A stretch of DNA of 64,000 nucleotides, from contig JABDCA010000001.1 in assembly GCA_013288345.1 (NCBI GenBank), positions 13,417-77,416 on the forward strand, given 5' to 3'. Under the pieces are notes generated by a model. The model ran no database searches. It saw only the letters and a program-made list of their open reading frames with translations, and had not been told where the DNA came from. Below are positions 1 to 37,557 of this stretch, piece by piece. Position 1 is the first letter of the stretch. Each line of letters starts with the position of its first letter. Source of the stretch: Bacteroidota bacterium (lineage in GTDB: Bacteria; Bacteroidota; Bacteroidia; JABEUT01). Both the position numbers and the translations under genes were made by a program.

Positions 1-1191
1 TCTATCCCATTTTGGTTCTATCTCACTAATCGAGGCGATTAACGAGAGGCCTATTCCTGCAATTCCCTCAAGCAGTCCAAATGAATCTTCTAACCTCTCA
101 TTACCACCATTTTCATCTCTTCTTGTTATTTTAAAATGCTTATTCACCCTGTAAAATTGAATTGTTTCCATATACCAATATATTGCAGCTTCTTTAAACT
201 CATACTTACCTGTGTAATTATATAATCTATTAAAAATATGCGCATTCCCTGCTGTTCCGTGACATAAACAAGCATCTTGGATTCCTGAATCCTTAATTTT
301 CCTTTGGGATACATTTATTGCAATTTTTATTGCTTCTTCTCTCCATGAAATATTATTTGTTACTAAACTTGCTTCAAATAAAGAGAGAACAATTCCTAAA
401 TCACCATAACACCACGACACTCTACTATAATACGGTGGATTACTTGGATAAAATGTTGGGAAATAAGAAGTTGTGCTCTTTTTATCAAATTTATTAAGTA
501 TCCAATTTATACATCCACTCATTAAATTCTCCACAGTTATAGAATCTATATTGTTTTCAAGAGCTTTACTTAAAAGTATAATAATACTGGGCATACCGTG
601 TGATAATCCAAGGTTATATCTTTTTATATTCTTCTCAATAAAATAAGACCCTTCAAACCATGCAATTTTATCAAAATCTCTCTCTGCTATATTCTCTAGA
701 AGTACAATCATTTCCTGTATAAAGGCTTTAGACTGTTCATTCTCTATATCTTCCAAGAAGAAAGGTAATGGGCTTAGACCTCCATGTAAATAGTCATAAT
801 TATTTTGAATTAAATCAACTTTGGCAGATTCCATAAGGAATTTCCTTACATCATTACCAATAATATCGCCATCAGATTTAATAGCTCCAGTTTTCATAAG
901 ATGCCTGTATGCCCATAAAACACCAGATATTCCTCCCGATAAATTATATGACATCGGAGTAGTTGTGATACAATCTAAAGAAGAGTTTATTAAACCATTT
1001 GAATAATATCGATATTTTATATTTGAATCATGCAAGTACAAATACTCCCAAAAAAAACTTATACCGGCTGCGCCAACCAATAGCCCTATACCATCAGGGG
1101 AGATTGCATACAAAGATTCAGAAATAATATCAATAGTTTGTAGAATTGAATTTCTTAAATCCGAATCCTCGATTAATGGACTCCATTTCAT
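1..1191 (-). CDS. lanC: Lanthionine synthetase C (class I lanthipeptide cyclase), 3' end cut by the window edge
   Basis: Not in the ORF track; translated by hand from ATG at 1191 (MKWSPLIEDSDLRNS...). Contains YNLGLSHGMPS, RVSWCYGDLG, DACLCHGTAGNAH (Zn ligands Cys/Cys/His) and C-terminal FGLLEGIAGIGLSL...EPKWDR. Confidence 0.93.
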   Translation of the reverse strand, partial: MKWSPLIEDSDLRNSILQTIDIISESLYAISPDGIGLLVGAAGISFFWEYLYLHDSNIKYRYYSNGLINSSLDCITTTPMSYNLSGGISGVLWAYRHLMKTGAIKSDGDIIGNDVRKFLMESAKVDLIQNNYDYLHGGLSPLPFFLEDIENEQSKAFIQEMIVLLENIAERDFDKIAWFEGSYFIEKNIKRYNLGLSHGMPSIIILLSKALENNIDSITVENLMSGCINWILNKFDKKSTTSYFPTFYPSNPPYYSRVSWCYGDLGIVLSLFEASLVTNNISWREEAIKIAINVSQRKIKDSGIQDACLCHGTAGNAHIFNRLYNYTGKYEFKEAAIYWYMETIQFYRVNKHFKITRRDENGGNERLEDSFGLLEGIAGIGLSLIASISEIEPKWDR

Positions 1192-1222: not shown

Positions 1223-2314
1223 TCAACATGGACAAGGGCAACGCGAAAGGCCAATATCAGATAGAGGAAAATTACCTTGTGGAGGGTTCGTGACATGACA
1301 GGCAGTTCCAGCTTGCGTCATTTGACAGGTATGACAAATAGTAGCTGCACAGGTCTGACAGGTCTGACAGGTATTATAACAGGTTAGACAAGTAAGTGTT
1401 TGTGGGTGACATTGGTCTGTTGCCACACAATCCGTAATATTTGCGCAGTGTCGCCCTGGTGCAGAAGTATTCGCACCACCGCCACCACAAGCATGATTTG
1501 CCATAGTCAAGACGCAACCATGTACAGAACAAGGATTCGTAATACTATTGACTGAATAATTAAGTGAAGATACAGTTTCAATATTTAGTGCCAACTTGGA
1601 TTTGCGTTTTCTTGGCTGCCAATCAAATAATGCTCTCCCGAATGTCGATATATATATTCCTATAACAACACTTACCATTATACCATACTGGTCTTGCAGA
1701 GACCTGTTTTCCTTTGTTTTAATTGAAATCGTATCCATACCGAGAACAGCTCCATTAATACACGATATCAACCAGCAAGACATATCATAACCATCACTCT
1801 TAGCAAGTGGAAAGTCTTGCCAACAAGAATGTTTGGAGGAAAATTCATTGAGCCAATAACCAGTAGAAATTTTTACTACTTCAAGCAAAAGTTTTATTCT
1901 AGATTTTTCAGTATCATCTATATTTGATTTTTCGGCAAGTTTATTTAAAGAATTAGTCCAATATGTTACAATATCTGTTTCTATAAAATCATCATATCGT
2001 ATTTCAAATCTTTTGTCATTTAAGGAAATGAAAGGATTATTTATTGAAACTGCTGTAGAAGTATATAGGTTTATTGTATTATATATTAATGAACGTGTTT
2101 GAATTTCGTCTATAAGTATATTTTTTTGACTATACGTTACGATAATGAAATCAACAATAGCACTAACAAAATCATCATTATCTGAAGTGTTGTTTAATTT
2201 TTCTGATAGGAACTTAAAGCCATTTTCTAATAATATTTTTACGTCATAAGAATCATTTAATCCAAAATGTCTTTCAGAATGATCATTGGGGCTTAAAAAG
2301 GTATTTTCCAACAT
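1223..2314 (-). CDS. Putative very large lanthipeptide precursor: about 235-aa N-terminal domain, leader-like motif, Cys/Thr-rich core
   Basis: KSKLALNIETVSSLN resembles the Bacteroidota class I leader motif LxLxKx5L (K replaced by I). The following 111 aa hold 17 Cys by my count, with TC repeats (LTCLTCYNTCQTCQTC). It ends 31 bp upstream of lanC. Confidence 0.68.
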   Translation of the reverse strand: MLENTFLSPNDHSERHFGLNDSYDVKILLENGFKFLSEKLNNTSDNDDFVSAIVDFIIVTYSQKNILIDEIQTRSLIYNTINLYTSTAVSINNPFISLNDKRFEIRYDDFIETDIVTYWTNSLNKLAEKSNIDDTEKSRIKLLLEVVKISTGYWLNEFSSKHSCWQDFPLAKSDGYDMSCWLISCINGAVLGMDTISIKTKENRSLQDQYGIMVSVVIGIYISTFGRALFDWQPRKRKSKLALNIETVSSLNYSVNSITNPCSVHGCVLTMANHACGGGGANTSAPGRHCANITDCVATDQCHPQTLTCLTCYNTCQTCQTCAATICHTCQMTQAGTACHVTNPPQGNFPLSDIGLSRCPCPC

Positions 2315-2361: not shown

Positions 2362-3288
2362 TTACACATAAAATCTTGATTGCATTGCGAATGTCTGAAA
2401 GATATTATATATAAGTAAGGCACCTGCTGCACTCGAAGCACTACATATATATGCCATCGCATAGGTATTACTAGAGAAAGCTGTAAACGTCCCATTATCA
2501 TTAACAGCCATGATAGGTATATTTAAATTTGGAATACTACTTGAATTGGCTGAATACGTTGTGATAAGATTTCCATTCCGATATAAAGCTGTTGTGCTAG
2601 AGTTAATTCTTGTAGCTGAGAATAGACCAGTTACTGGAGATTGTGAAGTACTTAAAACAAGAGAACTCTGTGTAGAATCATTTATATTCCAAGCGTAGTA
2701 ATACTTACCTAAACCAGGAGACCAAACAGGGGTACATAATCTTATATAATTTGAGGGCGATGTTCCTATGTAACCACCCATTGGTGTTGCATATATATCA
2801 GATTCTGTTCCAATAAGATATACCCCCAAACTACCTGAATTAAGTTTGTAACTTACTGCATCGCTTGTTGATGGATTGTAATTACTTAGTAAGTAGGAGC
2901 TTGATCCATTTCCTGTATAACCTCTTAGCCTTGCCCAAGAAGGGCTACTTTGTTCAGTTATATTGCTTGGCCAAGTTGAATTTATTCCCTTAGGGTTTAC
3001 TATGCTTACACGTGCATGTGCTTGTTGTTCGGTTGCAAAAATCCAAAATCTATCCAAAAAGGGCCAAATTCCTGTCGACTTAAATTGCTTTATCAAATAA
3101 TCAACTGAAAGTAAGTAAGTCATTGACGGTTTTGGTAATGTAAGCTGGTTATACCAAGCCATAGTTTCTTGTTGGAAATTATATGAGTTATTACTATACA
3201 GTCCTTTATTAACTCCATAATATGTTCCTTCATTTAGCCCTGAACCTAAACCCTTGAAATTCCCATTAAATAAACCTTTTTCTGGCAT
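2362..3288 (-). CDS. Phage-virion-like protein with a probable LamG/concanavalin-like C-terminal domain
   Basis: YLIKQFKSTGIWPFLDRFWIFA resembles a segment I recall from phage structural or adhesin proteins. The C-terminus is S/T/N/G-rich and beta-strand-like (ATRINSSTTALYRNG). Confidence 0.5.
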   Translation of the reverse strand: MPEKGLFNGNFKGLGSGLNEGTYYGVNKGLYSNNSYNFQQETMAWYNQLTLPKPSMTYLLSVDYLIKQFKSTGIWPFLDRFWIFATEQQAHARVSIVNPKGINSTWPSNITEQSSPSWARLRGYTGNGSSSYLLSNYNPSTSDAVSYKLNSGSLGVYLIGTESDIYATPMGGYIGTSPSNYIRLCTPVWSPGLGKYYYAWNINDSTQSSLVLSTSQSPVTGLFSATRINSSTTALYRNGNLITTYSANSSSIPNLNIPIMAVNDNGTFTAFSSNTYAMAYICSASSAAGALLIYNIFQTFAMQSRFYV

Positions 3289-3299
3289 AATATTTATTT

Positions 3300-3743
3300 T
3301 TAATAATCACTTCCGATTGTATTGGTGTATAACGTTTGTGTAAGATCTATTGTGGAAGCGCAAGATATTTTTAATACGGACCCTGGCGCAAGTTCAACGT
3401 ATGGCTTACCGGTCATATCTAGTGGCAAACCCACACAATGTGCAACACTTAATGCATCAAAAGCCGCACTACCATTCCCAACTCCTGCCGAAGGAATAGT
3501 AACATGCCCTATTGGGTAAACATTCCCTGAATTTACGATATACAGAAAAAAACTTAAACTAACTGTAGTTGTATATGATAGTAAGGCACTATATACACGG
3601 CTTCCATTAGTGCCTGCCGTATATATTGCAACTCCTCCAGAGTCAACACCAAGGGTACCAGCCCCATTGGCATTGGTTAATGTTCCAACATTGACAGTAG
3701 GATTATTTGCGTATATAGGTAGATTGTTTCCTTGTAAACTCAT
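3300..3743 (-). CDS. Small phage-structural-like protein, paralog of 3766-4206
   Basis: Shares MSLQGNNxPxxAxNP, YTAGxNGSRVY, FLYI, PIG, DALS, GLPxDxTGKPYVELA and GxDY with its neighbour. No signal peptide. Confidence 0.55.
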   Translation of the reverse strand: MSLQGNNLPIYANNPTVNVGTLTNANGAGTLGVDSGGVAIYTAGTNGSRVYSALLSYTTTVSLSFFLYIVNSGNVYPIGHVTIPSAGVGNGSAAFDALSVAHCVGLPLDMTGKPYVELAPGSVLKISCASTIDLTQTLYTNTIGSDY

Positions 3744-3765
3744 ATTCTTCTTAGTTTAAGAAATA

Positions 3766-4206
3766 TCAATAATCAGCCCCCATTGAAGAACCAAAAATAG
3801 ATTTGGCAGCTGTAACATTAGCAAATGCAGCCATTTTTAATGTACATCCAGTCGCTAATTCTACATAAGGTTTTCCAGTACCATCAAATGGCAAACCAGG
3901 GCAATTTGCAGGACTAAGTGCATCTACGCATGGAGTATTTGCTAAGTCTCCAGCGGTTGCGGGCACAGCTATAAAACCTATTGGGAATGCTGTTGAGCCA
4001 TTATATATATATAAGAACACACTATTAGCTACATCGTTTGTAGATAAGAATAGTCCATATACTCTACTCCCATTAGAGCCAGCTGTATAAAGAGTTACGC
4101 CATTTGTATTTGAACCAAGTGAACCCGCTGTTGCAGCAGCAAGTGTACCTCCAGAATTTTGTGGGTTTGTTGCAAAGACTGGAATGTTATTTCCTTGTAA
4201 ACTCAT
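3766..4206 (-). CDS. Small phage-structural-like protein, paralog of 3300-3743
   Basis: Tandem paralog; first gene after the repeat-containing promoter. Confidence 0.55.
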   Translation of the reverse strand: MSLQGNNIPVFATNPQNSGGTLAAATAGSLGSNTNGVTLYTAGSNGSRVYGLFLSTNDVANSVFLYIYNGSTAFPIGFIAVPATAGDLANTPCVDALSPANCPGLPFDGTGKPYVELATGCTLKMAAFANVTAAKSIFGSSMGADY

Positions 4207-4244: not shown

Positions 4245-4331
4245 CAAACATACTATATGCGTCACCGATTTTTTTTAATGCCGTACTATGTTACATTTTC
4301 ACAGTACTATTGTTATAGAATATCGTACTAA
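4245..4331 (-). promoter_or_regulatory. Bacteroidota -7 promoter element with three direct repeats at 21-bp period (LytTR-type boxes)
   Basis: TATGTTTG (TAnnTTTG) at 4252-4245 on the minus strand. GTACTA on the plus strand at 4283, 4304 and 4325. No TTTG -33 element at the expected position. Confidence 0.6.
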
Positions 4332-5119
4332 GTTGCACCCTTAACAGAAATTCGTGAAAGGAAATCTTTTCTAAACCATCTGTTTAATGTAACCTGCTTT
4401 AACTTATTGCTATCAAGTAAGCCTTTAAGTGTAATTACATCATACTCTATTTTAGAAACAGCGTCTATGGAGATTAACTCCGATTTATTTATCCTCAATA
4501 GATTAGAAGAAAGCGAAAGAAGTCTTTCAAACGAGCAATTCATTAGAATGTATTTCTCTCCATTATTTAAAATTATTCGCTTATGCCTATGATCAGAGTC
4601 ATCTGTTCTTACAAACAAAATACTTGATAATTGTATTTTTACTTTCCCTCTTTCTCCTGCTACATAGAACAATTCAAAATCATGTATTTTACCCTGTACA
4701 ATATTCTCAATATGCACTTTATGTGCAATACTTATTAGATTATCCAACTTTTCTTTTGTCACAGGCTTAGCAATTATTGTTAATGGGCAAAGGTCAAAAG
4801 CCTCCTTCAAATGTTCGAATGTATTCGTGACTATGACAATTTTCTTGTTCCCGATTTTAGCAACTGATTGAAAACCTGTTTCCTCAAAGAGACTTAGGTC
4901 TAAAAGGCAAAGATCAAATTGAAGTTGTGGTAAGGCTTGGAGAAATTTATTTGGTGAATTAAAACTCCCTAATACTTCTGCTAAAGAAGAGTCACGAAGA
5001 AAATCATACATGGCTTCGCAGTAATACGAATCATTATCAATTAATACACATTTTAGTTTTCGAGTGGTCAATGTATTTACAGGATTGTAATCAACTCTTA
5101 TGTCATATATAAGAATCAA
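4328..5119 (-). CDS. LytTR-family response regulator (start uncertain: TTG at 5119 or 5071)
   Basis: Receiver motifs CVLIDND, DLCLLD, IVIVT and IIAKP; LytTR motifs SSILFVRTD and LLRINKSELISID. Confidence 0.85.
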   Translation of the reverse strand: MILIYDIRVDYNPVNTLTTRKLKCVLIDNDSYYCEAMYDFLRDSSLAEVLGSFNSPNKFLQALPQLQFDLCLLDLSLFEETGFQSVAKIGNKKIVIVTNTFEHLKEAFDLCPLTIIAKPVTKEKLDNLISIAHKVHIENIVQGKIHDFELFYVAGERGKVKIQLSSILFVRTDDSDHRHKRIILNNGEKYILMNCSFERLLSLSSNLLRINKSELISIDAVSKIEYDVITLKGLLDSNKLKQVTLNRWFRKDFLSRISVKGAT

Positions 5120-29374: not shown

Positions 29375-32300
29375 TTAAACCCTGATACCAATTATCAGTA
29401 CGTCGTCAACCTGTTCGAGGTTGCCCATCCATTTATCAAAGGCAAAGCTAAGATTATCACGCTGCCTCAACATATCAAGGCTTCGTCCTTCCAGTACTTT
29501 CTGTTCCAGCTGCTTGTATTTGAATTTTTTGCCCTTTTCGCCACCAAACTGATCTGCATAACCATCTGTAAATAAATATATTTCATCTCCTTTGGTAAGC
29601 TTCACATTATGTGTTGTGAATGGCCTTGGATTATCAGAATTACCTATCGGTTGCTTATCGGCAGTTATTTCTTTTATTTCGGTACCTTGTATAAACCACA
29701 ATGGATTATTGGCACCCGCCCATTGCACCTCTTTAGTTTTCGTATTAATGGTACACAACGAAATATCCATACCATCCTTTATATCTTCTTTCTCCGATTT
29801 TTCAAATGTCTCAATAACCAAATCCCTTACTTTATCCAATATTTTACCCGGATCAGTTATTCCGAACTCTTTTACTGCTCTGTTGAGCGCATTAGAACAA
29901 ACTACACTCACCATGGCGCCTGGTACACCGTGACCCGTACAGTCGCCGGCAGCAACAAATATCATATCGTTCTTTTCTGTCATCCAGTAAAAGTCACCAC
30001 TTACAATATCCTTGGGCTTGAACAGAATGAAACTATCAGGCAATACCGATTTAAAGCGCTCTCTCGTAGGCAAAATAGCTTCCTGTATACGTTTAGCATA
30101 GTTTATACTATCGGTAATATCTTTATTCTTCATTTCAATCACTTCCTTTTGCTTAACAACCTCAGCGGTTCTTTCACTAATTATATTTCTGAGGCTTCGG
30201 GTAGAAACAGTAACTACGCCATATACAAAAGCTGCAAAGAATAAAACATAGGCTATGTATGCCCAAATAGTACGATACCATGGTGACAGGATAGTAAACT
30301 CATAAATAGCTTCATGGCTTTGGTTACCAAATATATTTTTGGCTTTTACATGAAAGAAGTAATGCCCTTCTGGTAAATATGTATAGGTCGCTTTTGTCTC
30401 ATTTTTCCAAACGCTCCATTGGGCATGCTGTGCATCTGAACCCTCAAGGCGGTAGCTGTAAAGCATAGAAGACTCATCCTCGAAGTTAGGCGCAGCATAC
30501 ATAAATATGAGTGAATTGTCTATATAAGGAAGGCTTGGTTTAAACCTGTCAGGCTGGGTAATTGAAACCACACCACTGTCACCAGAATAAGCACCGTAAA
30601 ATATGGCAGAATCCTTACCCCTACTAATAACAACTTTATGTATCAATGCATAATAATCCTGGGTGTAATCTTTTTTTATACTATTGTCATACCGCGTAAT
30701 TCCATCAGGGCAGCCCATCCATGTTATACCATCTTTCTCATTATAAATACAATAAATGATATTCTTCGACATGCCCATAAAAGGCATGGTTACCCACTGC
30801 TTATCAGCCTTCCCTGGGTTATTTACATAACCCACGTGCAAGGCTCCGTCTTTCAAGCTAATAGCTACTACCCATATTGATCCATCCGGTCCAACATCAA
30901 TCCTAGGTATGTTCATAGTGCTATCTGCAAGTTGTGCACCTAATGAGCTATCGCGCGAAAATTTACCATTACCATTATACTTAAATAAGCCTTTAGGTGT
31001 TGCAAAATAAATATGGCCATTAATATTTCTAGCATATATATTGCTTTCTACAGGTAGTCCTGATGCTTTTTTTTCAAATACAGTTTGTGAGGACCCATCA
31101 ATTTTCTTATCCTTATATACAGGCTTAATCATAATCACACCATTTTTATTATGCCCGCACCAAATAGTGCCATTTTTTTCTTCTGTAATAGCTTGGATAT
31201 TTACACCTGTTATTTCTCCAAGATTTGCGCTTCCCTCATCATTCCATTTTCCATTATCCCAATACATAGAACTGATGGCATATTTTGAAATTCCGCCTCC
31301 AAGCGTCCATCCAATAAAAATTCGGTTTGAATCTATAATTGATCGGTGTAATGTATATGCATTTCCTTTTATAACCAATGTATTCTTATCTCCATCTATC
31401 TGGTATATACCGTCATTACTTGCGACTAAAAGAACAGATTTACTGCCAGTATTAACAGATAACAAATCCCAGCATTCTGTAGCAAGTCCATCAATTTTAT
31501 TGAAATGGGGTTGCTCAATTGCCCCGCCTACAAGTAAATTTTGGTTTGATAAATAAAATATGCCTGTTAATGTAGCGGCATATAGCTTACCGTCGTTTCT
31601 CGCAATGGCTTGTACCAAACCTTCTAATCCATTCTGATCATTAAACGATGTTATGGGAGAGTTAATGTCAACTTTCGAGATTCCATTTTGAGTAGCTAGC
31701 CATAATTTTTGTTGCGAATCCAAATATTGATAGTTTATCGATTCATCCTGTAAGCCATTCTTTTTATTTATAGCACCTACTAAGTGCCCTGAAGAATCGA
31801 CAACAACAATACCACCATCTCGCGTTCCAATAGAATAATCTTTACTGTTTAGCCTTATTCCATTATATATCCTGTTTAGGTTGAAAAACTGATCAATATC
31901 TGTATGGAATGGATTAATTTTTGTTAACTGTGTAGCATCTTGCACATGGGCTGAAAAGTCCGCCGGTACCATGGAAAACAGACCACGTCCCTCCATATTC
32001 ATCAATATTTCATTTTTACGGAAAGGCTGCATAAAATAAACCTTAGTATCCGCAAAAAAATCACCGCCCTGTATAAAATTTAAATTATTGTTAACCATTT
32101 TCATCATGCCCACTTCTCTTTCGCGCACATATAAATTATCATTCAAATGAAACATCAAATGAAAAGTAGCACCCGGCTTAGTTGCAGGCTCGCGGGTTAT
32201 CATTTTTTTTCCATCCCATATAAAAATTTTATTTGATGCCTGGAAATAAACTTTATTATCAGATGCAGCATAGCATGTCCATACATCAGCAAAGTCGCGA

Positions 32301-32752
32301 TTTCTTTTATTCTTAATTGAATCTACTAACGAACGGTATCTCATCCTACCTGTAGCATCTGGCGACAGGTAACCTATCTCGCCAATTCCACCTACATATA
32401 TTACACCTTTCTTATCAACGGTTAATGACCTTACTGTAACCTCATTAGGTGTTTGTATAGTATCCCAGTTATGTCCGTCATACTCCAGTATATCACTGTT
32501 ATTTCCAAAAAACAAAACTCCCCGTGAATCCTGAACTATAGCAAAGTTTTGTGGTGACAGGTTATATTCTTTGGCAGTGTAATTACGAATATTAAACAAG
32601 CCGGTTTCACTTGAGCTTTGCGCAAATGAGTTACTTGTTGTAATAAAGGTAAAAAAAACTACAATGAGATTAAAAACACACTTCTGTGCAGTCTTACTTA
32701 AATATTTTCTACGGTTTACGCTATTCATTCCCTTAAAAAGAGGCAAAAACAT
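29375..32752 (-). CDS. Periplasmic beta-propeller / Y_Y_Y sensor fused to a SpoIIE (PP2C) phosphatase
   Basis: QNFAIVQDSRGVLFFGN propeller repeats, YSYRLEG...YTYLPEGHYFFHVKA, a TM segment, PKDIVSGDFYW, DCTGHGVPGA, DGMD, TDGYADQFGG and DDVLIIG. Confidence 0.92.
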   Translation of the reverse strand: MFLPLFKGMNSVNRRKYLSKTAQKCVFNLIVVFFTFITTSNSFAQSSSETGLFNIRNYTAKEYNLSPQNFAIVQDSRGVLFFGNNSDILEYDGHNWDTIQTPNEVTVRSLTVDKKGVIYVGGIGEIGYLSPDATGRMRYRSLVDSIKNKRNRDFADVWTCYAASDNKVYFQASNKIFIWDGKKMITREPATKPGATFHLMFHLNDNLYVREREVGMMKMVNNNLNFIQGGDFFADTKVYFMQPFRKNEILMNMEGRGLFSMVPADFSAHVQDATQLTKINPFHTDIDQFFNLNRIYNGIRLNSKDYSIGTRDGGIVVVDSSGHLVGAINKKNGLQDESINYQYLDSQQKLWLATQNGISKVDINSPITSFNDQNGLEGLVQAIARNDGKLYAATLTGIFYLSNQNLLVGGAIEQPHFNKIDGLATECWDLLSVNTGSKSVLLVASNDGIYQIDGDKNTLVIKGNAYTLHRSIIDSNRIFIGWTLGGGISKYAISSMYWDNGKWNDEGSANLGEITGVNIQAITEEKNGTIWCGHNKNGVIMIKPVYKDKKIDGSSQTVFEKKASGLPVESNIYARNINGHIYFATPKGLFKYNGNGKFSRDSSLGAQLADSTMNIPRIDVGPDGSIWVVAISLKDGALHVGYVNNPGKADKQWVTMPFMGMSKNIIYCIYNEKDGITWMGCPDGITRYDNSIKKDYTQDYYALIHKVVISRGKDSAIFYGAYSGDSGVVSITQPDRFKPSLPYIDNSLIFMYAAPNFEDESSMLYSYRLEGSDAQHAQWSVWKNETKATYTYLPEGHYFFHVKAKNIFGNQSHEAIYEFTILSPWYRTIWAYIAYVLFFAAFVYGVVTVSTRSLRNIISERTAEVVKQKEVIEMKNKDITDSINYAKRIQEAILPTRERFKSVLPDSFILFKPKDIVSGDFYWMTEKNDMIFVAAGDCTGHGVPGAMVSVVCSNALNRAVKEFGITDPGKILDKVRDLVIETFEKSEKEDIKDGMDISLCTINTKTKEVQWAGANNPLWFIQGTEIKEITADKQPIGNSDNPRPFTTHNVKLTKGDEIYLFTDGYADQFGGEKGKKFKYKQLEQKVLEGRSLDMLRQRDNLSFAFDKWMGNLEQVDDVLIIGIRV

Positions 32753-32825
32753 AAAATTATACTACCAAAGATAGAAAAACTTATTTACCCTGCGAATAAG
32801 GTCGAAAATTGAGCGGTATAAAAAC

Positions 32826-32864
32826 AAAAGACCGCCTTGGGAATACCCCAAAAGGCGGTCTTTT
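32826..32864 (-). terminator. Intrinsic terminator
   Basis: AAAAGACCGCCTT ... AAGGCGGTCTTTT inverted repeat just after the stop at 32881. Confidence 0.85.
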
Positions 32865-32880
32865 AGATGGGTCCATATTT

Positions 32881-35800
32881 TTACTGAAGCACTACTTTTT
32901 TGTAGGTATTTCCGTTATCTCCGGATACCTGTAATATATATACTCCTTTACTTAAGCCAGACAAGTCAATTTCTTTGCTAATGTGGCCGCTAATTTTACC
33001 ATAGTTAGTGGTAGCCATCATCTGTCCAATAGCATTATAAACCTTCATGGTGATATTCTGTTTATTTGCAATATCAAGTGTAAAGTTTACTATACCACGG
33101 CTTGGGTTAGGATACACAATCAATGAATTCAAATCGCCATTTAATACAGCTATTCCGGAAACAGTAATATTGCCCGTATTTGATTTAGATGCATTGTAAT
33201 TGATTGATTCAATAGATGGAGTACAGCCGCCTGGGTTACTTATACCCATGTGATAGAAATAAGGTTTTGAACTTGCTGGTGGCTTATTGCTATATGTATA
33301 AATACCATTATTAAGCGCATAACCTACACTGTCATTGGCAACACCGGCTACAGTATCACGGTAAACTATATAATAATTAAATGGCAGACCCTGATAATTA
33401 TCCCATATAAGGTTAAATGTAGAACCATTCTGACTAATTGTTAAGTGCATGGTTTTATGTGGCGAACTCAGTGGAGATTCAAACCCACACGAATCGACCT
33501 GCGATATTTCGTATCTCCAGCTCTGAACGTCAGGATCAGAGAGGCTATCTACATACGTACCACCATTTTTAACCGGAACACTTCCTATTTTATTAAACAA
33601 CCCTGGTACTGTTGTTTCCTTATATACATTATAGCTAGCAATTGACTTTGCTAAAGACTTATCCCAAACCACATAATTATGATTTGATTTAGGGTCGACA
33701 GTCACCATACAAATAGGCAATTGAGGAGGTGCTTTTTCCTGAACTTTAGCTGTAGCAGTTCCAATGCAACCTACCTGATCTGTAACTATTACGTTATACG
33801 TTCCGGTAGGAACATTGGCAAGATTCTGGTTTGTGCTATTATTAATATCAGACCACACATAACTATCAGTCCCTGTACCACCCGTAACTGTCAATATTAC
33901 ACTACCACTACCCTTATTGCCTGAAGCGCAGGCAGAAGCTATTGTACTATCAACTGTAACAACTGGTCCATTTAAGCTACTTACCGCCGCTTGTGCTGAA
34001 TCCATACAACCATTCGAGTCGGCAACTGTTACAGTATATGTACCTGCAATTAAGCCAAAGGCTGAAGTAGTAGAAGCGCCAGAACTCCAGTTATAGGTAT
34101 ACGGAGATGTACCACCACTTACAACTACACTTGCACTACCCGTAGGTGACGAACAAGCGGATGTTGTGGTTGAAACAGTAAGCGCAACCGGAGCAGAAGG
34201 TTGAGTAACTGTGAAGGTTTTTATTCCCGAGCAACCAGTATTATCAGTTACTGTAACATAATAAGGGCCTGATGAAAGGTTGCTAATGGTTGAAGTGGTT
34301 GCGCCATTAGACCATGCATACGAGTATGGGCTTACACCACCATTAATAGTCGTACTTATAGATCCATTTGCAAGTCCATAGCATGTAACTTCATTAATAA
34401 CATTACTCTTAATTACCGGACCATCTGAGTTTGTTATAGCAATAGATATAAATGTTGAACAACCGTTTTTATCGGTTACCGTAACAATGTAATTACCCGA
34501 ATGCAAACTATCAGCAGTTGATAAGGTATCGCCATTGTTCCAGCCAAATCTATATGGAGCCGTACCACCAGTTACTGAAACAGTAGCAGAACCAATATGC
34601 TGGCCACACTTACTTGGGGTAGTAGAGGCAACTGACATTACAGGTGACGTAGAGGCTGCAACTGTAACTGTAGCTGTATTTGAGCAATTATACTTATCGT
34701 ATGCTGTAACAGTATATGTACCTGGCGAAAGATTTGTTATAGATGTGCCAGTTTGAACAGGAACAGTGCTCCATGCATAGGTGTATGTTGTACCAGTACC
34801 ACCGGTAACTGAGGTAACTGATGCTTGGCCATTATCTTGTCCGCAGGTTGTATTAACCACGCTTGTCTTAATTTTAATTTGGCTTGGCTGGCCTACAACT
34901 ACCGTATTGGTAGCAGGGCACCCTATAGAGTCCATTACAGTAATGGTATATACACCGGCTGTTAATCCGGTAGCTGTAGCTGTTGTTTGAACAGGCACAG
35001 TACTCCATGAATAGGTATATGTCTTCCCTGCACCACCCGATGCAAATGCCGTTGCTGTCCCGTCATTACCACCGAAACAAGAATCCTTTGTTGAACTTGC
35101 ATTCACTATATCCGAACAATTTTGCACTTTAAAAGCCCCGCCCTGGTATAAGCTCCAGTGCCCTGTGCTATCTTCTACGCGTATAAATGCTGCATGCGAG
35201 CCAATAGAAAGCGCAGAAGTATTAAGGCTTTGCGTAAGACTAATTGAATCGGCAGCTACTATACCTGTTATTGCAAATCCTTTACCTTGTCCGGGATCCT
35301 TATCAAAAAAGTATTCACCGGCTACAATTCTTGCTGTTGCTGCAGGAGCAGAAATAGCAGGAGCAACTAAGAAATTACGGCCTTCATATAAACTCCACTG
35401 TCCCGCTGCATTTTCAGCACGCACAAAAACTTTATGGAATCCAACGGTCAAACTTCCTATAGAATAAGCATTATTCATTGTAATTGAATCGGCAGCAGCT
35501 CCTGTTGCTATGGCTATCCCTTTACCTTGTCCGGGATCCTTATCAAAGAAATATTCGGCTGCGACTATTTGAGTTACTGGTGGTATCGTTACCAAAGGCT
35601 GTATATAAAAACTACGGCCTTCATATAAACTCCATTGGCCCGCTGCATTCTCTGAGCGAATGAACATTTTATGGTATCCTGCAGGTAAACTGGAAATTGA
35701 AATAGCTTGGTTTATAATAATACTATCTGCTGCTGCACCTGTGGTTATTGCAGTTCCTTTACCTTGCCCAGGATCAACATCAAAGAAATATTCGGCTGCT

Positions 35801-37557
35801 ACTATTTGAGTTACCGGAGGTATCACTACTAATGGCTGTATGTAAAAACTACGGCCTTCATATAAACTCCATTGGCCCGCTGCATTCTCCGAACGAATGA
35901 ACATTTTATGGTATCCTGCAGGTAAACTGGAAATCGAAACAGCTTGGTTTATAATAATACTATCTGCTGCTGCACCTGTAGTAATAGCAGTTCCTTTACC
36001 TTGGCCGGGATCCTTATCGAAGAAATATTCGGCCGCTACTATTTGAGTTACTGGAGGTATCGTTACCAATGGCTGTATATAAAAACTACGGCCTTCATAT
36101 AAACTCCATTGACCTGCAGCATTCTCTGAGCGAATATACATCTTATGGTATCCTGCAGGTAAACTGGAAATCGAAATAGCTTGGTTTATAATAATGCTAT
36201 CTGCTGCTGCACCTGTGGTTATTGCAGTTCCTTTACCTTGGCCAGGATCTTTATCAAAAAAATACTCGGCGCTAACAATTTGAGCTGCAGGAGAAACACT
36301 TGAAGCAGGCTGAACATAAAACTGTCCTGCAGAATATAAACTCCAATGCCCAACTGAATCTTTTACTCGAACACCAATAACGTGAAATGTTGATGTAAGT
36401 GCAGTAATTGAGATACTTTGATTAACAGTAACTGAATCTCCTCCGGTAAAGGTTATAGGAGTTCCACTGCCAACACCCGGGTCATTATCAAAAAAGTATT
36501 CTGCACTAAGTACTCCATGAGCCATTATGCCCTGCCCTTTAAAATTAACACTTATACTACCTCCGGTTGCTACAACAGCCGAAACAGTCAATAATGTTAT
36601 TTGTGGTATAGCCACATAACCTGTTAAATTAGGCATTGGGTAATTTCCTCCATAAACTCCAATATCGCTACCATCTGTAGCTGCATGGTGTGCAGGCGAA
36701 GCTGGTGTAAATGTCCAATTATAATTCCAAACTGCGTTTAAACTTACTGTAGCTGCAGGAATGGTAGCATCAGTCCAACCCGGTGGCGTTGCAAAAATAT
36801 TGGCTGTACCACCCGAGTTACCGCCATAGGTATTCAAGTTAAGAGCAGAACTTGCAGAAGTAATGTTATTATTAAACACACAAGTAGTACCATTCTCCGG
36901 ATTAGAATAATAGAAAACATTATTACTAATAGTAGCATTAGATATAGCTGTGTACAAAGCATTTCCACTGTATGTAGCAAAAACGTTGTGATCAACAACT
37001 ACTGTAAGCTGGTTGGAGGTTTCTATATCTTCCAGAAAATTGTTCTGTATATAGCAATTGGTGTTGTTCTGTATATAAACATTGTTAATGTCATTATTCC
37101 TGATCGTCCAGGCAGTACCATATACGTATAAGCCCGAAGTCACATAACATCTTTCAACATCTACACTATCAACAACTACGGCTGCGCCACTTTGCTGAAT
37201 ACTATTATTTACAAATAGGCCCTGAATTTTTGTTCCTTTTACAACACCATTCAGATATACATAATCTACAATTGTGTTATAATTATACTGTAAGCCTTTT
37301 ACAGCATATCCAGCACCTATTAAAGTAATGTGCGATTTAGATATGGTAACAGATCCGTAGTCGGTCGGGGAGCCCATCACATAAACCGTATCGCCTGCAC
37401 TGGCTGAATTTACAGCCGTTTGCAAGTTAGCATACATCCCTACACTAATAGGGTTATTGCTTACAGTTATAATATGTGCGCTCAGAGTATCCGGCCTAAA
37501 GAAGCAAAAGGCAAGTATTCCGATTATTATTTTTTTCATTTGGTGAATTTTAAGCAT
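32881..37557 (-). CDS. T9SS type A cargo protein: beta-helix domain, six EYFFDxDPG repeats, SprB repeats, CTD
   Basis: Signal peptide; repeat units; GGTxPYxYxWS...L..G.Y.VTV.D..GC SprB repeats; CTD VYPNPSRG...DLSGLSKGVYILQV...KKVVLQ. Confidence 0.9.
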   Translation of the reverse strand: MLKIHQMKKIIIGILAFCFFRPDTLSAHIITVSNNPISVGMYANLQTAVNSASAGDTVYVMGSPTDYGSVTISKSHITLIGAGYAVKGLQYNYNTIVDYVYLNGVVKGTKIQGLFVNNSIQQSGAAVVVDSVDVERCYVTSGLYVYGTAWTIRNNDINNVYIQNNTNCYIQNNFLEDIETSNQLTVVVDHNVFATYSGNALYTAISNATISNNVFYYSNPENGTTCVFNNNITSASSALNLNTYGGNSGGTANIFATPPGWTDATIPAATVSLNAVWNYNWTFTPASPAHHAATDGSDIGVYGGNYPMPNLTGYVAIPQITLLTVSAVVATGGSISVNFKGQGIMAHGVLSAEYFFDNDPGVGSGTPITFTGGDSVTVNQSISITALTSTFHVIGVRVKDSVGHWSLYSAGQFYVQPASSVSPAAQIVSAEYFFDKDPGQGKGTAITTGAAADSIIINQAISISSLPAGYHKMYIRSENAAGQWSLYEGRSFYIQPLVTIPPVTQIVAAEYFFDKDPGQGKGTAITTGAAADSIIINQAVSISSLPAGYHKMFIRSENAAGQWSLYEGRSFYIQPLVVIPPVTQIVAAEYFFDVDPGQGKGTAITTGAAADSIIINQAISISSLPAGYHKMFIRSENAAGQWSLYEGRSFYIQPLVTIPPVTQIVAAEYFFDKDPGQGKGIAIATGAAADSITMNNAYSIGSLTVGFHKVFVRAENAAGQWSLYEGRNFLVAPAISAPAATARIVAGEYFFDKDPGQGKGFAITGIVAADSISLTQSLNTSALSIGSHAAFIRVEDSTGHWSLYQGGAFKVQNCSDIVNASSTKDSCFGGNDGTATAFASGGAGKTYTYSWSTVPVQTTATATGLTAGVYTITVMDSIGCPATNTVVVGQPSQIKIKTSVVNTTCGQDNGQASVTSVTGGTGTTYTYAWSTVPVQTGTSITNLSPGTYTVTAYDKYNCSNTATVTVAASTSPVMSVASTTPSKCGQHIGSATVSVTGGTAPYRFGWNNGDTLSTADSLHSGNYIVTVTDKNGCSTFISIAITNSDGPVIKSNVINEVTCYGLANGSISTTINGGVSPYSYAWSNGATTSTISNLSSGPYYVTVTDNTGCSGIKTFTVTQPSAPVALTVSTTTSACSSPTGSASVVVSGGTSPYTYNWSSGASTTSAFGLIAGTYTVTVADSNGCMDSAQAAVSSLNGPVVTVDSTIASACASGNKGSGSVILTVTGGTGTDSYVWSDINNSTNQNLANVPTGTYNVIVTDQVGCIGTATAKVQEKAPPQLPICMVTVDPKSNHNYVVWDKSLAKSIASYNVYKETTVPGLFNKIGSVPVKNGGTYVDSLSDPDVQSWRYEISQVDSCGFESPLSSPHKTMHLTISQNGSTFNLIWDNYQGLPFNYYIVYRDTVAGVANDSVGYALNNGIYTYSNKPPASSKPYFYHMGISNPGGCTPSIESINYNASKSNTGNITVSGIAVLNGDLNSLIVYPNPSRGIVNFTLDIANKQNITMKVYNAIGQMMATTNYGKISGHISKEIDLSGLSKGVYILQVSGDNGNTYKKVVLQ
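35110..36520 (-). repeat. Six tandem repeats of about 79 aa (234-240 bp) carrying EYFFDxDPG
   Basis: EYFFD blocks near 36487, 36253, 36016, 35779, 35542 and 35302; the central units are near-identical in DNA. Confidence 0.9.

What the first reader, a model, noticed from the sequence alone, without database searches (positions are those of the whole stretch)
2362..4206. Three phage-virion-like genes apparently co-transcribed with the lanthipeptide genes
Seen: two paralogous proteins of about 146 aa and a 308-aa LamG-like protein lie in a tight minus-strand run (gaps of 22, 11, 47 and 31 bp through to lanC). I found no hairpin terminator or -7 promoter between them, and no capsid, portal, terminase or tape-measure genes in the window. 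Inference: virion-type modules have been recruited into a RiPP operon, as a display, delivery or receptor-binding scaffold, a phage decoy, or immunity. This combination is not part of the lanthipeptide clusters I know. Anti-phage lanthipeptide systems are known from Actinobacteria, so a defence role is plausible given the neighbouring defence-like cargo.
Basis: partly seen in the sequence, partly recalled or inferred. Interest (0 to 1): 0.72.

Follow-up and report, generated by a model that had tools for sequence, protein, structure and literature searches.

The report
Phage receptor-binding genes inside peptide-antibiotic operons
Three genes that descend from the tip of a phage tail (two small jelly-roll proteins and a lectin-like protein) are a conserved, intact part of a family of mobile Bacteroidota operons that make modified peptides. 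This association does not appear in the literature I searched, and its purpose is still unknown.

Summary
Three minus-strand ORFs (146, 147 and 308 aa) sit at the stated coordinates. They run head-to-tail, with gaps of 22, 11, 47 and 31 bp, into a 363-aa Cys/Thr-rich precursor and LanC. LanB and a T9SS beta-propeller gene follow beyond the window edge.

- **Transcription signals:** the gaps hold no terminator-like hairpin. The only intergenic Bacteroidota -7 promoter box lies 39 bp upstream of the first gene, behind three TAGTAC boxes spaced 21 bp apart, next to a LytTR regulator.
- **Folds:** the 146/147-aa proteins are confident jelly rolls (pLDDT 94) that resemble uncharacterised tailed-phage virion proteins. 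The 308-aa protein has a ConA/LamG-like fold.
- **Phage context:** in phage contigs, and in a prophage of this same genome, the homologous pair lies between the tail-fibre gene and the lysis genes.
- **RiPP context:** a separate clade of the pair lies directly upstream of RiPP precursors in six independent loci. Four are class I lanthipeptide loci, one is grasp-with-spasm and one has a YydG-like radical SAM enzyme. None of six phage loci shows this.

Recruitment into RiPP operons is therefore supported. Function is inferred only. My best guess is a ligand-binding carrier or targeting module; an anti-phage decoy or sensor is the main rival.

The parts
4328..5119 (-). LytTR-family response regulator (263 aa), directly upstream of the operon promoter
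   Evidence: PF00072 at E 3.8e-9 and PF04397 at E 7e-4. L003 has a LytTR regulator in the same position.
4245..4330 (-). Putative operon promoter: three TAGTAC boxes at 4283, 4304 and 4325 (21-bp period), then a Bacteroidota -7 box TATGTTTG at 4245-4252, 39 bp before the ATG at 4206
   Evidence: L009 has a similar TAGTAC/CAGTAC pair 21 bp apart plus TATGTTTG upstream of its first gene. Function was not tested.
3766..4206 (-). p146: small jelly-roll protein of phage virion type, first gene of the operon
   Evidence: AF2 pLDDT 94.4. BFVD matches to Caudovirales proteins, TM 0.6-0.7, best E 2.4e-10. 587 family representatives. Falls in the RiPP-linked clade.
3300..3743 (-). p147: paralog of p146
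   Evidence: 49% identity, E 8e-44. Groups with the second copy of L007.
2362..3288 (-). p308: Gly-periodic N-terminus, helical region and ConA/LamG-like lectin jelly roll
   Evidence: AF2 pLDDT 74, pTM 0.76. Foldseek hits to ConA-like lectin domains. phrog_18498 at E 5e-12. Phage homologs. 36% identical to the copy in this genome's own prophage.
1223..2314 (-). p363: precursor with an N-terminal carrier domain, a hydrophobic helix, a leader-like segment and a Cys/Thr-rich core
   Evidence: Sequence. Homologous in architecture to the 335-aa protein at the same position in L019, E 1e-7. No other homolog was found.
1..1191 (-). LanC cyclase (runs off the window). LanB and a T9SS BNR beta-propeller gene follow on the contig.
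   Evidence: PF05147 at E 1.7e-50. LanB at L002:10249-13383 and the Por_Secre_tail protein at L002:8731-10119.

Best explanation
The three genes are a domesticated copy of a two-component module that tailed phages encode at the distal end of the tail gene block: a small jelly-roll protein followed by a ConA-like lectin protein. In phages the pair sits after the tail-fibre gene and before the lysis genes. One lineage of this pair has become the leading, promoter-proximal part of a family of mobile Bacteroidota RiPP operons. Here it is transcribed from a LytTR-type promoter together with the precursor, LanC and LanB. All of that is shown or strongly supported.

The rest is inference. The proteins retain their ancestral job of binding a surface ligand, most likely a glycan. 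They would form a stoichiometric p146/p147/p308 complex that carries or targets the modified peptide to a cell surface. On this reading the module would work like the receptor-binding component of a phage-tail-like or lectin-like bacteriocin, independent of the peptide's chemistry.
For: **Operon membership**
- The genes share one strand with 11-47 bp gaps, no terminators, and a single intergenic -7 box upstream of p146.
- The order p146(x1-2), p300, precursor is kept in the window, L003, L007/L008, L019, L009 and L005. Flanks differ and identity is 40-66%.
- All ORFs stay intact at that divergence.

**Phage origin**
- The pair is adjacent in phage contigs L011/L012, L013 and L040, and in this genome's own prophage (L017). 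It lies after tail-fibre genes and before holin/endolysin genes.
- p146 resembles Caudovirales virion proteins.
- p308-type domains occur inside large phage virion proteins.

**Single recruitment is compatible with the data**
- All 12 RiPP-linked p146 sequences fall in one clade (SH-aLRT 84), sister to a phage-containing clade.

**Independence of RiPP class**
- Four loci carry LanB/LanC. One carries a grasp-with-spasm ATP-grasp enzyme (TIGR04192, E 3.8e-19). One carries a YydG-like radical SAM enzyme (E 5.8e-14).

**Hints for a binding or extracellular role**
- Both folds are lectin/TNF-like.
- The genes precede the precursor, a position that I take, from general knowledge, to suit abundant structural partners.
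- T9SS-secreted beta-propellers are conserved in three lanthipeptide loci.
- A Cys pair nine residues apart is almost specific to the RiPP clade (first Cys in 11/17 clade rows against 3/119 elsewhere), as expected for a disulfide outside the cytoplasm.
- LytTR regulators typically control bacteriocin operons (general knowledge).
Against: - None of the three proteins has a signal peptide or a T9SS C-terminal domain, so no export route is evident.
- The island holds no exporter, leader protease or lysis gene. No C39 peptidase was found in the genome, which is 87% complete.
- No physical interaction, localisation or ligand has been shown.
- The p300 tree is unresolved, so single recruitment is not demonstrated for that gene.
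- Several loci lie among defence genes, which also fits the anti-phage rival.
- Co-transcription was not tested.
Confidence: 0.4

Rival explanations
1. Anti-phage system. The phage-derived proteins stay in the cytoplasm and act as a decoy or sensor. They could co-assemble with the tail components of an infecting phage and poison assembly, or they could detect those components and release a RiPP effector that acts inside the cell. This would be a Bacteroidota counterpart of the actinobacterial lanthiphages.
For: - The proteins have no signal peptides. There is no exporter, protease or immunity gene in the island, and no C39 peptidase in the genome.
- L003 lies beside AbiV, a dCTP-deaminase-like gene and other defence-type genes.
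- The window's island carries methylase/GHKL and Z1-helicase modules, according to unverified notes.
- The N-terminal motif and overall architecture are shared with phage homologs, including a prophage in the same genome.
- Independence of RiPP class fits an interchangeable effector.
- Class I lanthipeptide clusters with anti-phage function exist (10.1101/2024.06.26.600839).
Against: - No PADLOC model matches any gene of the operon.
- Lanthiphages are reported only from Actinobacteria and carry LphD/E/F accessories that are absent here.
- The conserved T9SS-secreted proteins and the LytTR/direct-repeat regulation point to an extracellular, competition-type function.
- Mobile islands carry bacteriocins as well as defence genes.
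Confidence: 0.27
2. Biosynthetic or self-protection partner. The jelly-roll and lectin proteins bind the shared Bacteroidota leader, the carrier domain or the mature peptide inside the producer. They would act as a scaffold or chaperone for maturation, or as a sequestering immunity factor.
For: - They sit next to the precursor in every locus and are independent of the maturase class.
- No dedicated immunity gene is present.
- Partner-protein-dependent RiPP biosynthesis has precedent (PMC13097080).
- The proteins look cytoplasmic.
Against: - Known RiPP recognition elements are winged-helix PqqD-like domains, not jelly rolls (general knowledge).
- Class I LanB/LanC enzymes recognise their leaders without such partners (general knowledge).
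- Keeping two or three abundant phage-type proteins for this purpose has no precedent.
Confidence: 0.15
3. No functional link. The pair is the conserved backbone, or a prophage or satellite remnant, of a family of integrative elements that tend to pick up RiPP cargo downstream. Alternatively, it supplies host-range determinants for particles that mobilise the element.
For: - The loci lie in mobile contexts: serine recombinases, a tyrosine integrase, and excisionase/Rep-like genes in L007.
- The downstream cargo varies between loci.
Against: - No other phage gene survives in any of the six loci, yet these ORFs stay intact at 40-66% identity.
- They share gaps of 11 to about 70 bp and a promoter with the precursor.
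- The downstream genes are RiPP genes in 6 of 6 RiPP-clade loci that have enough sequence, against 0 of 6 phage-context loci. By my own arithmetic, not a tool result, that split has a Fisher two-sided p of about 0.002.
- No RiPP-clade member was found in IMG/VR; the best viral hits are 44-47% identical.
Confidence: 0.12

Closest known systems
Distal tail / receptor-binding gene pairs of tailed phages (last structural genes before the lysis cassette, e.g. the BppA/BppL-type arrangement of lactococcal siphophages; comparison from general knowledge)
   Same: The pair has homologs in phage contigs and in a prophage of the same genome, at exactly that gene position. The folds are a small jelly-roll knob and a ConA-like carbohydrate-binding fold.
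   Different: None of the RiPP loci holds a tail, baseplate, capsid or lysis gene. The genes sit instead in front of a RiPP precursor and its maturases. No sequence similarity to BppA/BppL was tested.
Bacteroidota class I lanthipeptide clusters (pinensin group; Walker et al. 2020, 10.1101/2020.03.13.990614)
   Same: Separate LanB and LanC genes and a Cys/Ser/Thr-rich core behind an L-x-L-type leader. In L007 the leader ends in GG.
   Different: Those clusters are described as often having a C39 protease/ABC exporter, and that paper does not contain the word 'phage'. Here no exporter is present and no C39 peptidase was found in the genome. Three phage-type genes lead the operon.
Lanthiphages (anti-phage class I lanthipeptide clusters of Actinobacteria; Shomar et al., 10.1101/2024.06.26.600839)
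   Same: A class I LanB/LanC cluster located among defence-type genes on a mobile island.
   Different: Lanthiphages were found only in Actinobacteria. They are defined by LphD/E/F accessories and a TxDxCxxxCxxxC core, none of which was seen here. They contain no phage structural homologs.
Phage-tail-like bacteriocins and lectin-like bacteriocins
   Same: The proposed working principle is the same: a phage-type or lectin-type surface-binding part sets the target of a killing function.
   Different: Here there is no sheath, tube or baseplate, and the putative killing part is a separate modified peptide. The resemblance is functional speculation, not homology.
C1q/TNF-like jelly-roll proteins (ExsFA/BclA of the Bacillus exosporium; phage cement proteins)
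   Same: These are the weak best PDB fold matches for p146 (E 5e-4 to 4e-3, TM 0.35-0.5).
   Different: There is no sequence similarity. The gene position beside the tail fibre, not beside the capsid gene, argues against a cement role.

Membership tests
Class I lanthipeptide biosynthetic gene cluster | Separate LanB dehydratase (PF04738 + PF14028) | tested here: met
   L002:10249-13383 matches at E 1.4e-131 and 6.9e-65.
Class I lanthipeptide biosynthetic gene cluster | LanC cyclase (PF05147) | tested here: met
   Window 1-1191 matches at E 1.7e-50.
Class I lanthipeptide biosynthetic gene cluster | Precursor with a leader and a Ser/Thr/Cys-rich core next to the enzymes | tested here: met
   p363 has a C-terminal core rich in Cys and Thr. 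Short precursors sit at the same position in L003 and L007. The modification itself was not tested.
Class I lanthipeptide biosynthetic gene cluster | Dedicated exporter and/or leader protease (usual, not strictly defining) | tested here: not met
   None is present in the operon or island. PF03412 is absent from the 87%-complete genome.
Tailed-phage virion (tail-distal) protein | Homologs encoded in phage genomes within the structural gene block | tested here: met
   L010-L013, L040 and the genome's own prophage L017 carry homologs after the tail-fibre gene and before the lysis genes.
Tailed-phage virion (tail-distal) protein | Encoded together with other virion genes at this locus | tested here: not met
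   There are no phage structural genes around the locus or among the window's largest ORFs.
Tailed-phage virion (tail-distal) protein | Physically present in virions or binds a host receptor | not testable with these tools
   This needs virion proteomics or binding assays.
Concanavalin A-like lectin / LamG fold (p308) | Fold match to ConA-like lectin domains | tested here: met
   Foldseek against PDB gives E 1e-6 to 1e-4 and TM up to 0.58 (normalised to target). Matches include CBM40, sialidase lectin domains, collagen NC4 and the lectin-like subdomain of clostridial neurotoxin binding domains, all generic fold matches. The model has pLDDT 74.
Concanavalin A-like lectin / LamG fold (p308) | Match to a Pfam LamG/Laminin_G profile | tested here: not met
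   p308 has no Pfam hit at E <= 1. The PF13385 hit of homolog P0018 probably lies in its extra N-terminal domain.
Lanthiphage (anti-phage lanthipeptide cluster) | LphD/LphE/LphF accessory genes; actinobacterial host | tested here: not met
   No stand-alone PF14028 or PF01135 gene was seen in the operon. The host is a T9SS-bearing Bacteroidota member.
Known or candidate anti-phage defence systems (PADLOC) | Match to any PADLOC model | tested here: not met
   Ten proteins of the operon and its flanks gave zero hits.

The most novel reading that the evidence does not exclude
A phage receptor-binding pair has been domesticated as a chemistry-independent accessory of mobile Bacteroidota RiPP operons and gives the peptide a function it could not have alone. 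In one form, it makes a minimal 'lectin-guided RiPP' that is targeted to particular cell surfaces without any tail machinery. In the other, it acts as a phage-tail decoy or sensor that couples phage assembly to an intracellular RiPP effector, which would be the first RiPP-based anti-phage system outside Actinobacteria.
Probability: 0.3. Interest if true: 0.85.

Novelty: new variant of a known kind. Interest (0 to 1): 0.62.

Why it matters
RiPP gene clusters are mined by their enzymes and precursors, and accessory genes of unknown family are usually ignored. Here a phage-derived two-protein module is kept at the head of operons that make three chemically different RiPP classes. Those operons lack the usual exporter, protease and immunity genes. 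If the module delivers, targets or triggers the peptide, it would be a new way of giving small modified peptides specificity. It would also be a clear case of phage receptor-binding proteins being reused without a tail. It would then offer a handle for engineering peptide targeting, or reveal a new kind of anti-phage system in Bacteroidota. The family is rare and absent from Pfam, NCBIfam and PADLOC, and the small jelly-roll protein has no PHROG match either, so standard annotation does not show it.

Tried and rejected
- **Family libraries:** Pfam and NCBIfam gave nothing for any of the three proteins. PHROGs gave nothing for p146/p147 and only two families of unknown function for p308. None of 128 p146 family members matched a PHROG. 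Profile searches of PDB sequences found nothing.
- **Phage records:** tblastn of p146 and p308 against 50,697 GenBank phage records gave no match.
- **Locus searches:** alignment A3 was too diverse for the search for related loci. The genome-contig scan with A1 found no relative. A LanC scan of viral contigs found nothing, but it used near-exact patterns only, so it says little.
- **Genome census:** among 401 sampled genomes of the phylum, only this genome has clear p146 homologs. A genome-based synteny census was therefore not possible.
- **Other dead ends:** p363 has no homolog by word-indexed search. No PADLOC hits.
- **Unresolved:** the p300 tree is unresolved.
- **Rejected, capsid or cement role for p146:** the gene sits beside the tail fibre, not beside the capsid gene, and it occurs in tailed phages.
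- **Rejected, p146 as a LanBC substrate:** the clade-specific Cys pair is also present in the loci without Lan enzymes.
- **Rejected, toxin relatedness of p308:** the neurotoxin-domain hits are generic ConA-like fold matches at about 12% identity.
Full report
**1. The observation**

The window is G000:C1:13417-77416. The minus strand carries, in order of transcription:
- a LytTR response regulator (4328-5119);
- a 146-aa ORF (3766-4206);
- a 147-aa ORF (3300-3743);
- a 308-aa ORF (2362-3288);
- a 363-aa ORF with a Cys/Thr-rich C-terminus (1223-2314);
- LanC, starting at 1191.

Past the window edge the contig continues with LanB (1044 aa) and a 462-aa BNR protein with a T9SS sorting domain. DUF2779 and DUF2130 genes and three serine recombinases follow.

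The two small proteins are 49% identical.

There is no terminator-like site on the minus strand between 1191 and 4330. The intergenic RNAs fold no better than shuffled sequence.

The Bacteroidota -7 motif TAnnTTTG occurs on this strand only at 4245-4252, 39 bp before the first ATG, and at 3792-3799, inside the 146-aa gene. Three TAGTAC boxes precede the first site at an exact 21-bp spacing. L009 has a TAGTAC/CAGTAC pair 21 bp apart and the same TATGTTTG box before its first gene.

**2. What the proteins are**

No curated library names them. p308 hits only two PHROGs of unknown function (phrog_18498, E 5e-12).

An exhaustive phmmer search with p146 found 587 cluster representatives. Most are about 140 aa, and a few are tandem fusions of 281-283 aa.

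With 128 of these as the alignment, AlphaFold2 gives a confident all-beta model for p146 (pLDDT 94.4).
- Matches to solved structures are weak (E about 1e-3, TM 0.35-0.5). They are jelly rolls of the C1q/TNF kind: the exosporium protein ExsFA, phage cement proteins and phage tail-fibre domains.
- Matches to predicted viral structures are much better. They are uncharacterised Caudovirales proteins at TM 0.6-0.7, best E 2.4e-10 with 29% identity, and several are labelled virion structural proteins.

The p308 model is of moderate confidence (pLDDT 74, pTM 0.76). It has a disordered N-terminus with Gly at a four-residue period, a helical region and a beta-sandwich.

That sandwich matches ConA-like lectin domains: CBM40, sialidase lectin domains, collagen NC4, the lectin-like subdomain of clostridial neurotoxin binding domains and a cyanophage tailspike. 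These are generic fold matches at about 12% identity. They imply a lectin-type fold and nothing about toxicity.

**3. Phage context**

Four IMG/VR contigs encode p146 homologs at 44-47% identity, and five encode p308 relatives.

In L013 the order is tape-measure-like protein, protease, virion protein, portal, tail fibre, a 73-aa ORF, p149, then p272. The p272 matches 'virion structural protein' PHROGs. Holin-like and peptidase-like genes follow. L012, L010 and L040 show the same layout.

This genome has a third pair on contig C3, inside a prophage. The order there is head-tail adaptor, tail-fibre protein (425 aa), p150, p304, endolysin. That p304 is 36% identical to p308 over its full length, including the Gly-periodic N-terminus.

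A profile scan of all fetched loci shows that the p146 and p300 genes are adjacent nearly everywhere. It also shows that the p300 domain occurs inside larger phage proteins of 435-830 aa.

So the ancestral setting is the distal end of the tail gene block, where receptor-binding proteins are usually encoded. That last point is general knowledge.

**4. RiPP context**

The close relatives of p146 and p308 are very few: ten each among 5.8 billion clusters. Every one whose surroundings I could read lies in front of RiPP genes.

| Locus | Gene order |
|---|---|
| L003 | LytTR regulator, p151, p289, 78-aa Cys-rich precursor, LanC, lipoprotein, LanB |
| L007/L008 | p148, p153, p293, 89-aa precursor with GG-ending leader, T9SS NHL propeller, LanC, LanB |
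| L019 | p163, p150, p312, 335-aa protein, LanB, LanC, T9SS BNR propeller |
| L009 | p146, p147, p306, two GG-leader peptides, ATP-grasp enzyme (best hit: grasp-with-spasm maturase, TIGR04192, E 3.8e-19) |
| L005 | integrase, HTH, p149, p293, 216-aa membrane protein, radical SAM enzyme (best hit: YydG peptide epimerases, E 5.8e-14, near full length) |

The 335-aa protein of L019 has the same architecture as p363 (E 1e-7). A seventh contig shows p151, p145, p295 and a 342-aa protein, but no DNA was available for it.

The flanks, the gene order of the enzymes and the sequence identities (40-66%) all differ, so these are independent loci. RiPP genes follow the pair in 6 of 6 such loci, against 0 of 6 phage-context loci.

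In a tree of 136 p146 sequences, all 12 RiPP-linked copies fall in one clade (SH-aLRT 84). This clade is sister to one that holds the IMG/VR copies, and the genome's own prophage copy is more distant.

The p300 tree is unresolved, though p308 pairs with the copy from the graspetide locus L009 (96/96). This suggests that the RiPP chemistry was exchanged behind a stable module.

No RiPP-clade member was found in IMG/VR.

**5. How it may work**

Shown:
- the module is phage-derived and intact;
- it is promoter-proximal;
- its association with RiPP genes is independent of the maturase class.

Not shown: any activity.

Features that bear on function:
- None of the three proteins has a signal peptide or a T9SS domain.
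- The island has no exporter, protease or immunity gene, and the 87%-complete genome has no C39 peptidase.
- T9SS-secreted beta-propellers recur in three lanthipeptide loci.
- Regulation appears to be by a LytTR regulator.
- The RiPP clade has an almost clade-specific Cys pair nine residues apart in a loop. The first Cys is present in 11/17 clade rows against 3/119 elsewhere.
- L003 lies among defence-type genes such as AbiV and a dCTP-deaminase-like gene. The window's island carries methylase, GHKL and helicase modules according to earlier, unverified notes.

I favour a ligand-binding carrier or targeting complex that accompanies the peptide, at about 0.4. The rivals are:
- a cytoplasmic phage decoy or sensor in a RiPP-based anti-phage system, about 0.27;
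- a biosynthetic or immunity partner, about 0.15;
- a functionally unlinked element backbone, about 0.12.

**6. Comparison with what is known**

The enzymes define a class I lanthipeptide cluster of the Bacteroidota type. However, those clusters are described with C39/ABC exporters and without phage-type genes.

Lanthiphages share the defence-island setting. They are restricted to Actinobacteria and have different accessory genes.

A neighbourhood survey of graspetide loci lists no such family. My literature searches found no description of phage receptor-binding homologs in RiPP clusters. That is absence in the searched library only.

I rate this a new variant of a known kind: a known class of gene cluster with an undescribed, conserved, phage-derived accessory module.

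**7. Limits**

- There are few loci, most from short metagenomic contigs.
- The genomic context of the other 575 or so family representatives is unknown.
- The p308 model is only moderately confident.
- There are no transcript, interaction or phenotype data.

Noticed in passing
G000:C3:~30400-37500 (L017:3447-10456): A prophage in the same genome has a head-tail adaptor, a 425-aa tail-fibre protein, its own p150/p304 pair and an endolysin. It is a possible partner or evolutionary source for the RiPP-linked copies.
   Followed up: partly
window 4245-4330 (-); L009:680-770: Three TAGTAC boxes at a 21-bp period sit before a TATGTTTG -7 box. L009 has a similar TAGTAC/CAGTAC pair plus the same -7 box. 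This is a likely LytTR-controlled promoter.
   Followed up: partly
window 3766-4206 (p146 residues 93 and 102) and homologs: A Cys pair nine residues apart (TPCVDALSxxNCPGLP) is nearly specific to the RiPP-linked clade and absent from the phage copies. It is present whichever maturase class follows. It could be a disulfide.
   Followed up: partly
L002:8731-10119; L007:5377-6762; L019:7953-9383: A T9SS-secreted beta-propeller (BNR or NHL type, with Por_Secre_tail) is encoded inside three of the four lanthipeptide loci. Its role is unknown.
   Followed up: no
whole genome G000: No Peptidase_C39 domain was found anywhere in the 87%-complete assembly, and there is no exporter in the island. This is odd for a cluster whose relatives have GG-type leaders.
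   Followed up: partly
window 1223-2314; L019:2088-3095; L005:11499-12149: The protein just after the pair can be long: an N-terminal domain, a hydrophobic helix and then the peptide part. p363 and the L019 protein are homologous (E 1e-7).
   Followed up: partly
P0050, P0081, P0098 (representatives, no context): Some family members are tandem fusions of two p146 domains (281-283 aa). This echoes the adjacent paralog pairs in the RiPP loci and suggests that the two domains work together.
   Followed up: no
L010:11260-11580: In one phage contig the pair is followed by a 106-aa ORF with 7 Cys. No Lan enzyme is nearby.
   Followed up: no
L003:1098-8535: Next to the L003 RiPP operon lie an AbiV-type HEPN protein, an HTH/M78 regulator, a dCTP-deaminase-like gene, a radical SAM gene and an AAA_18 gene. 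This looks like a defence island.
   Followed up: no
I did not verify the comM junction.
   Followed up: no
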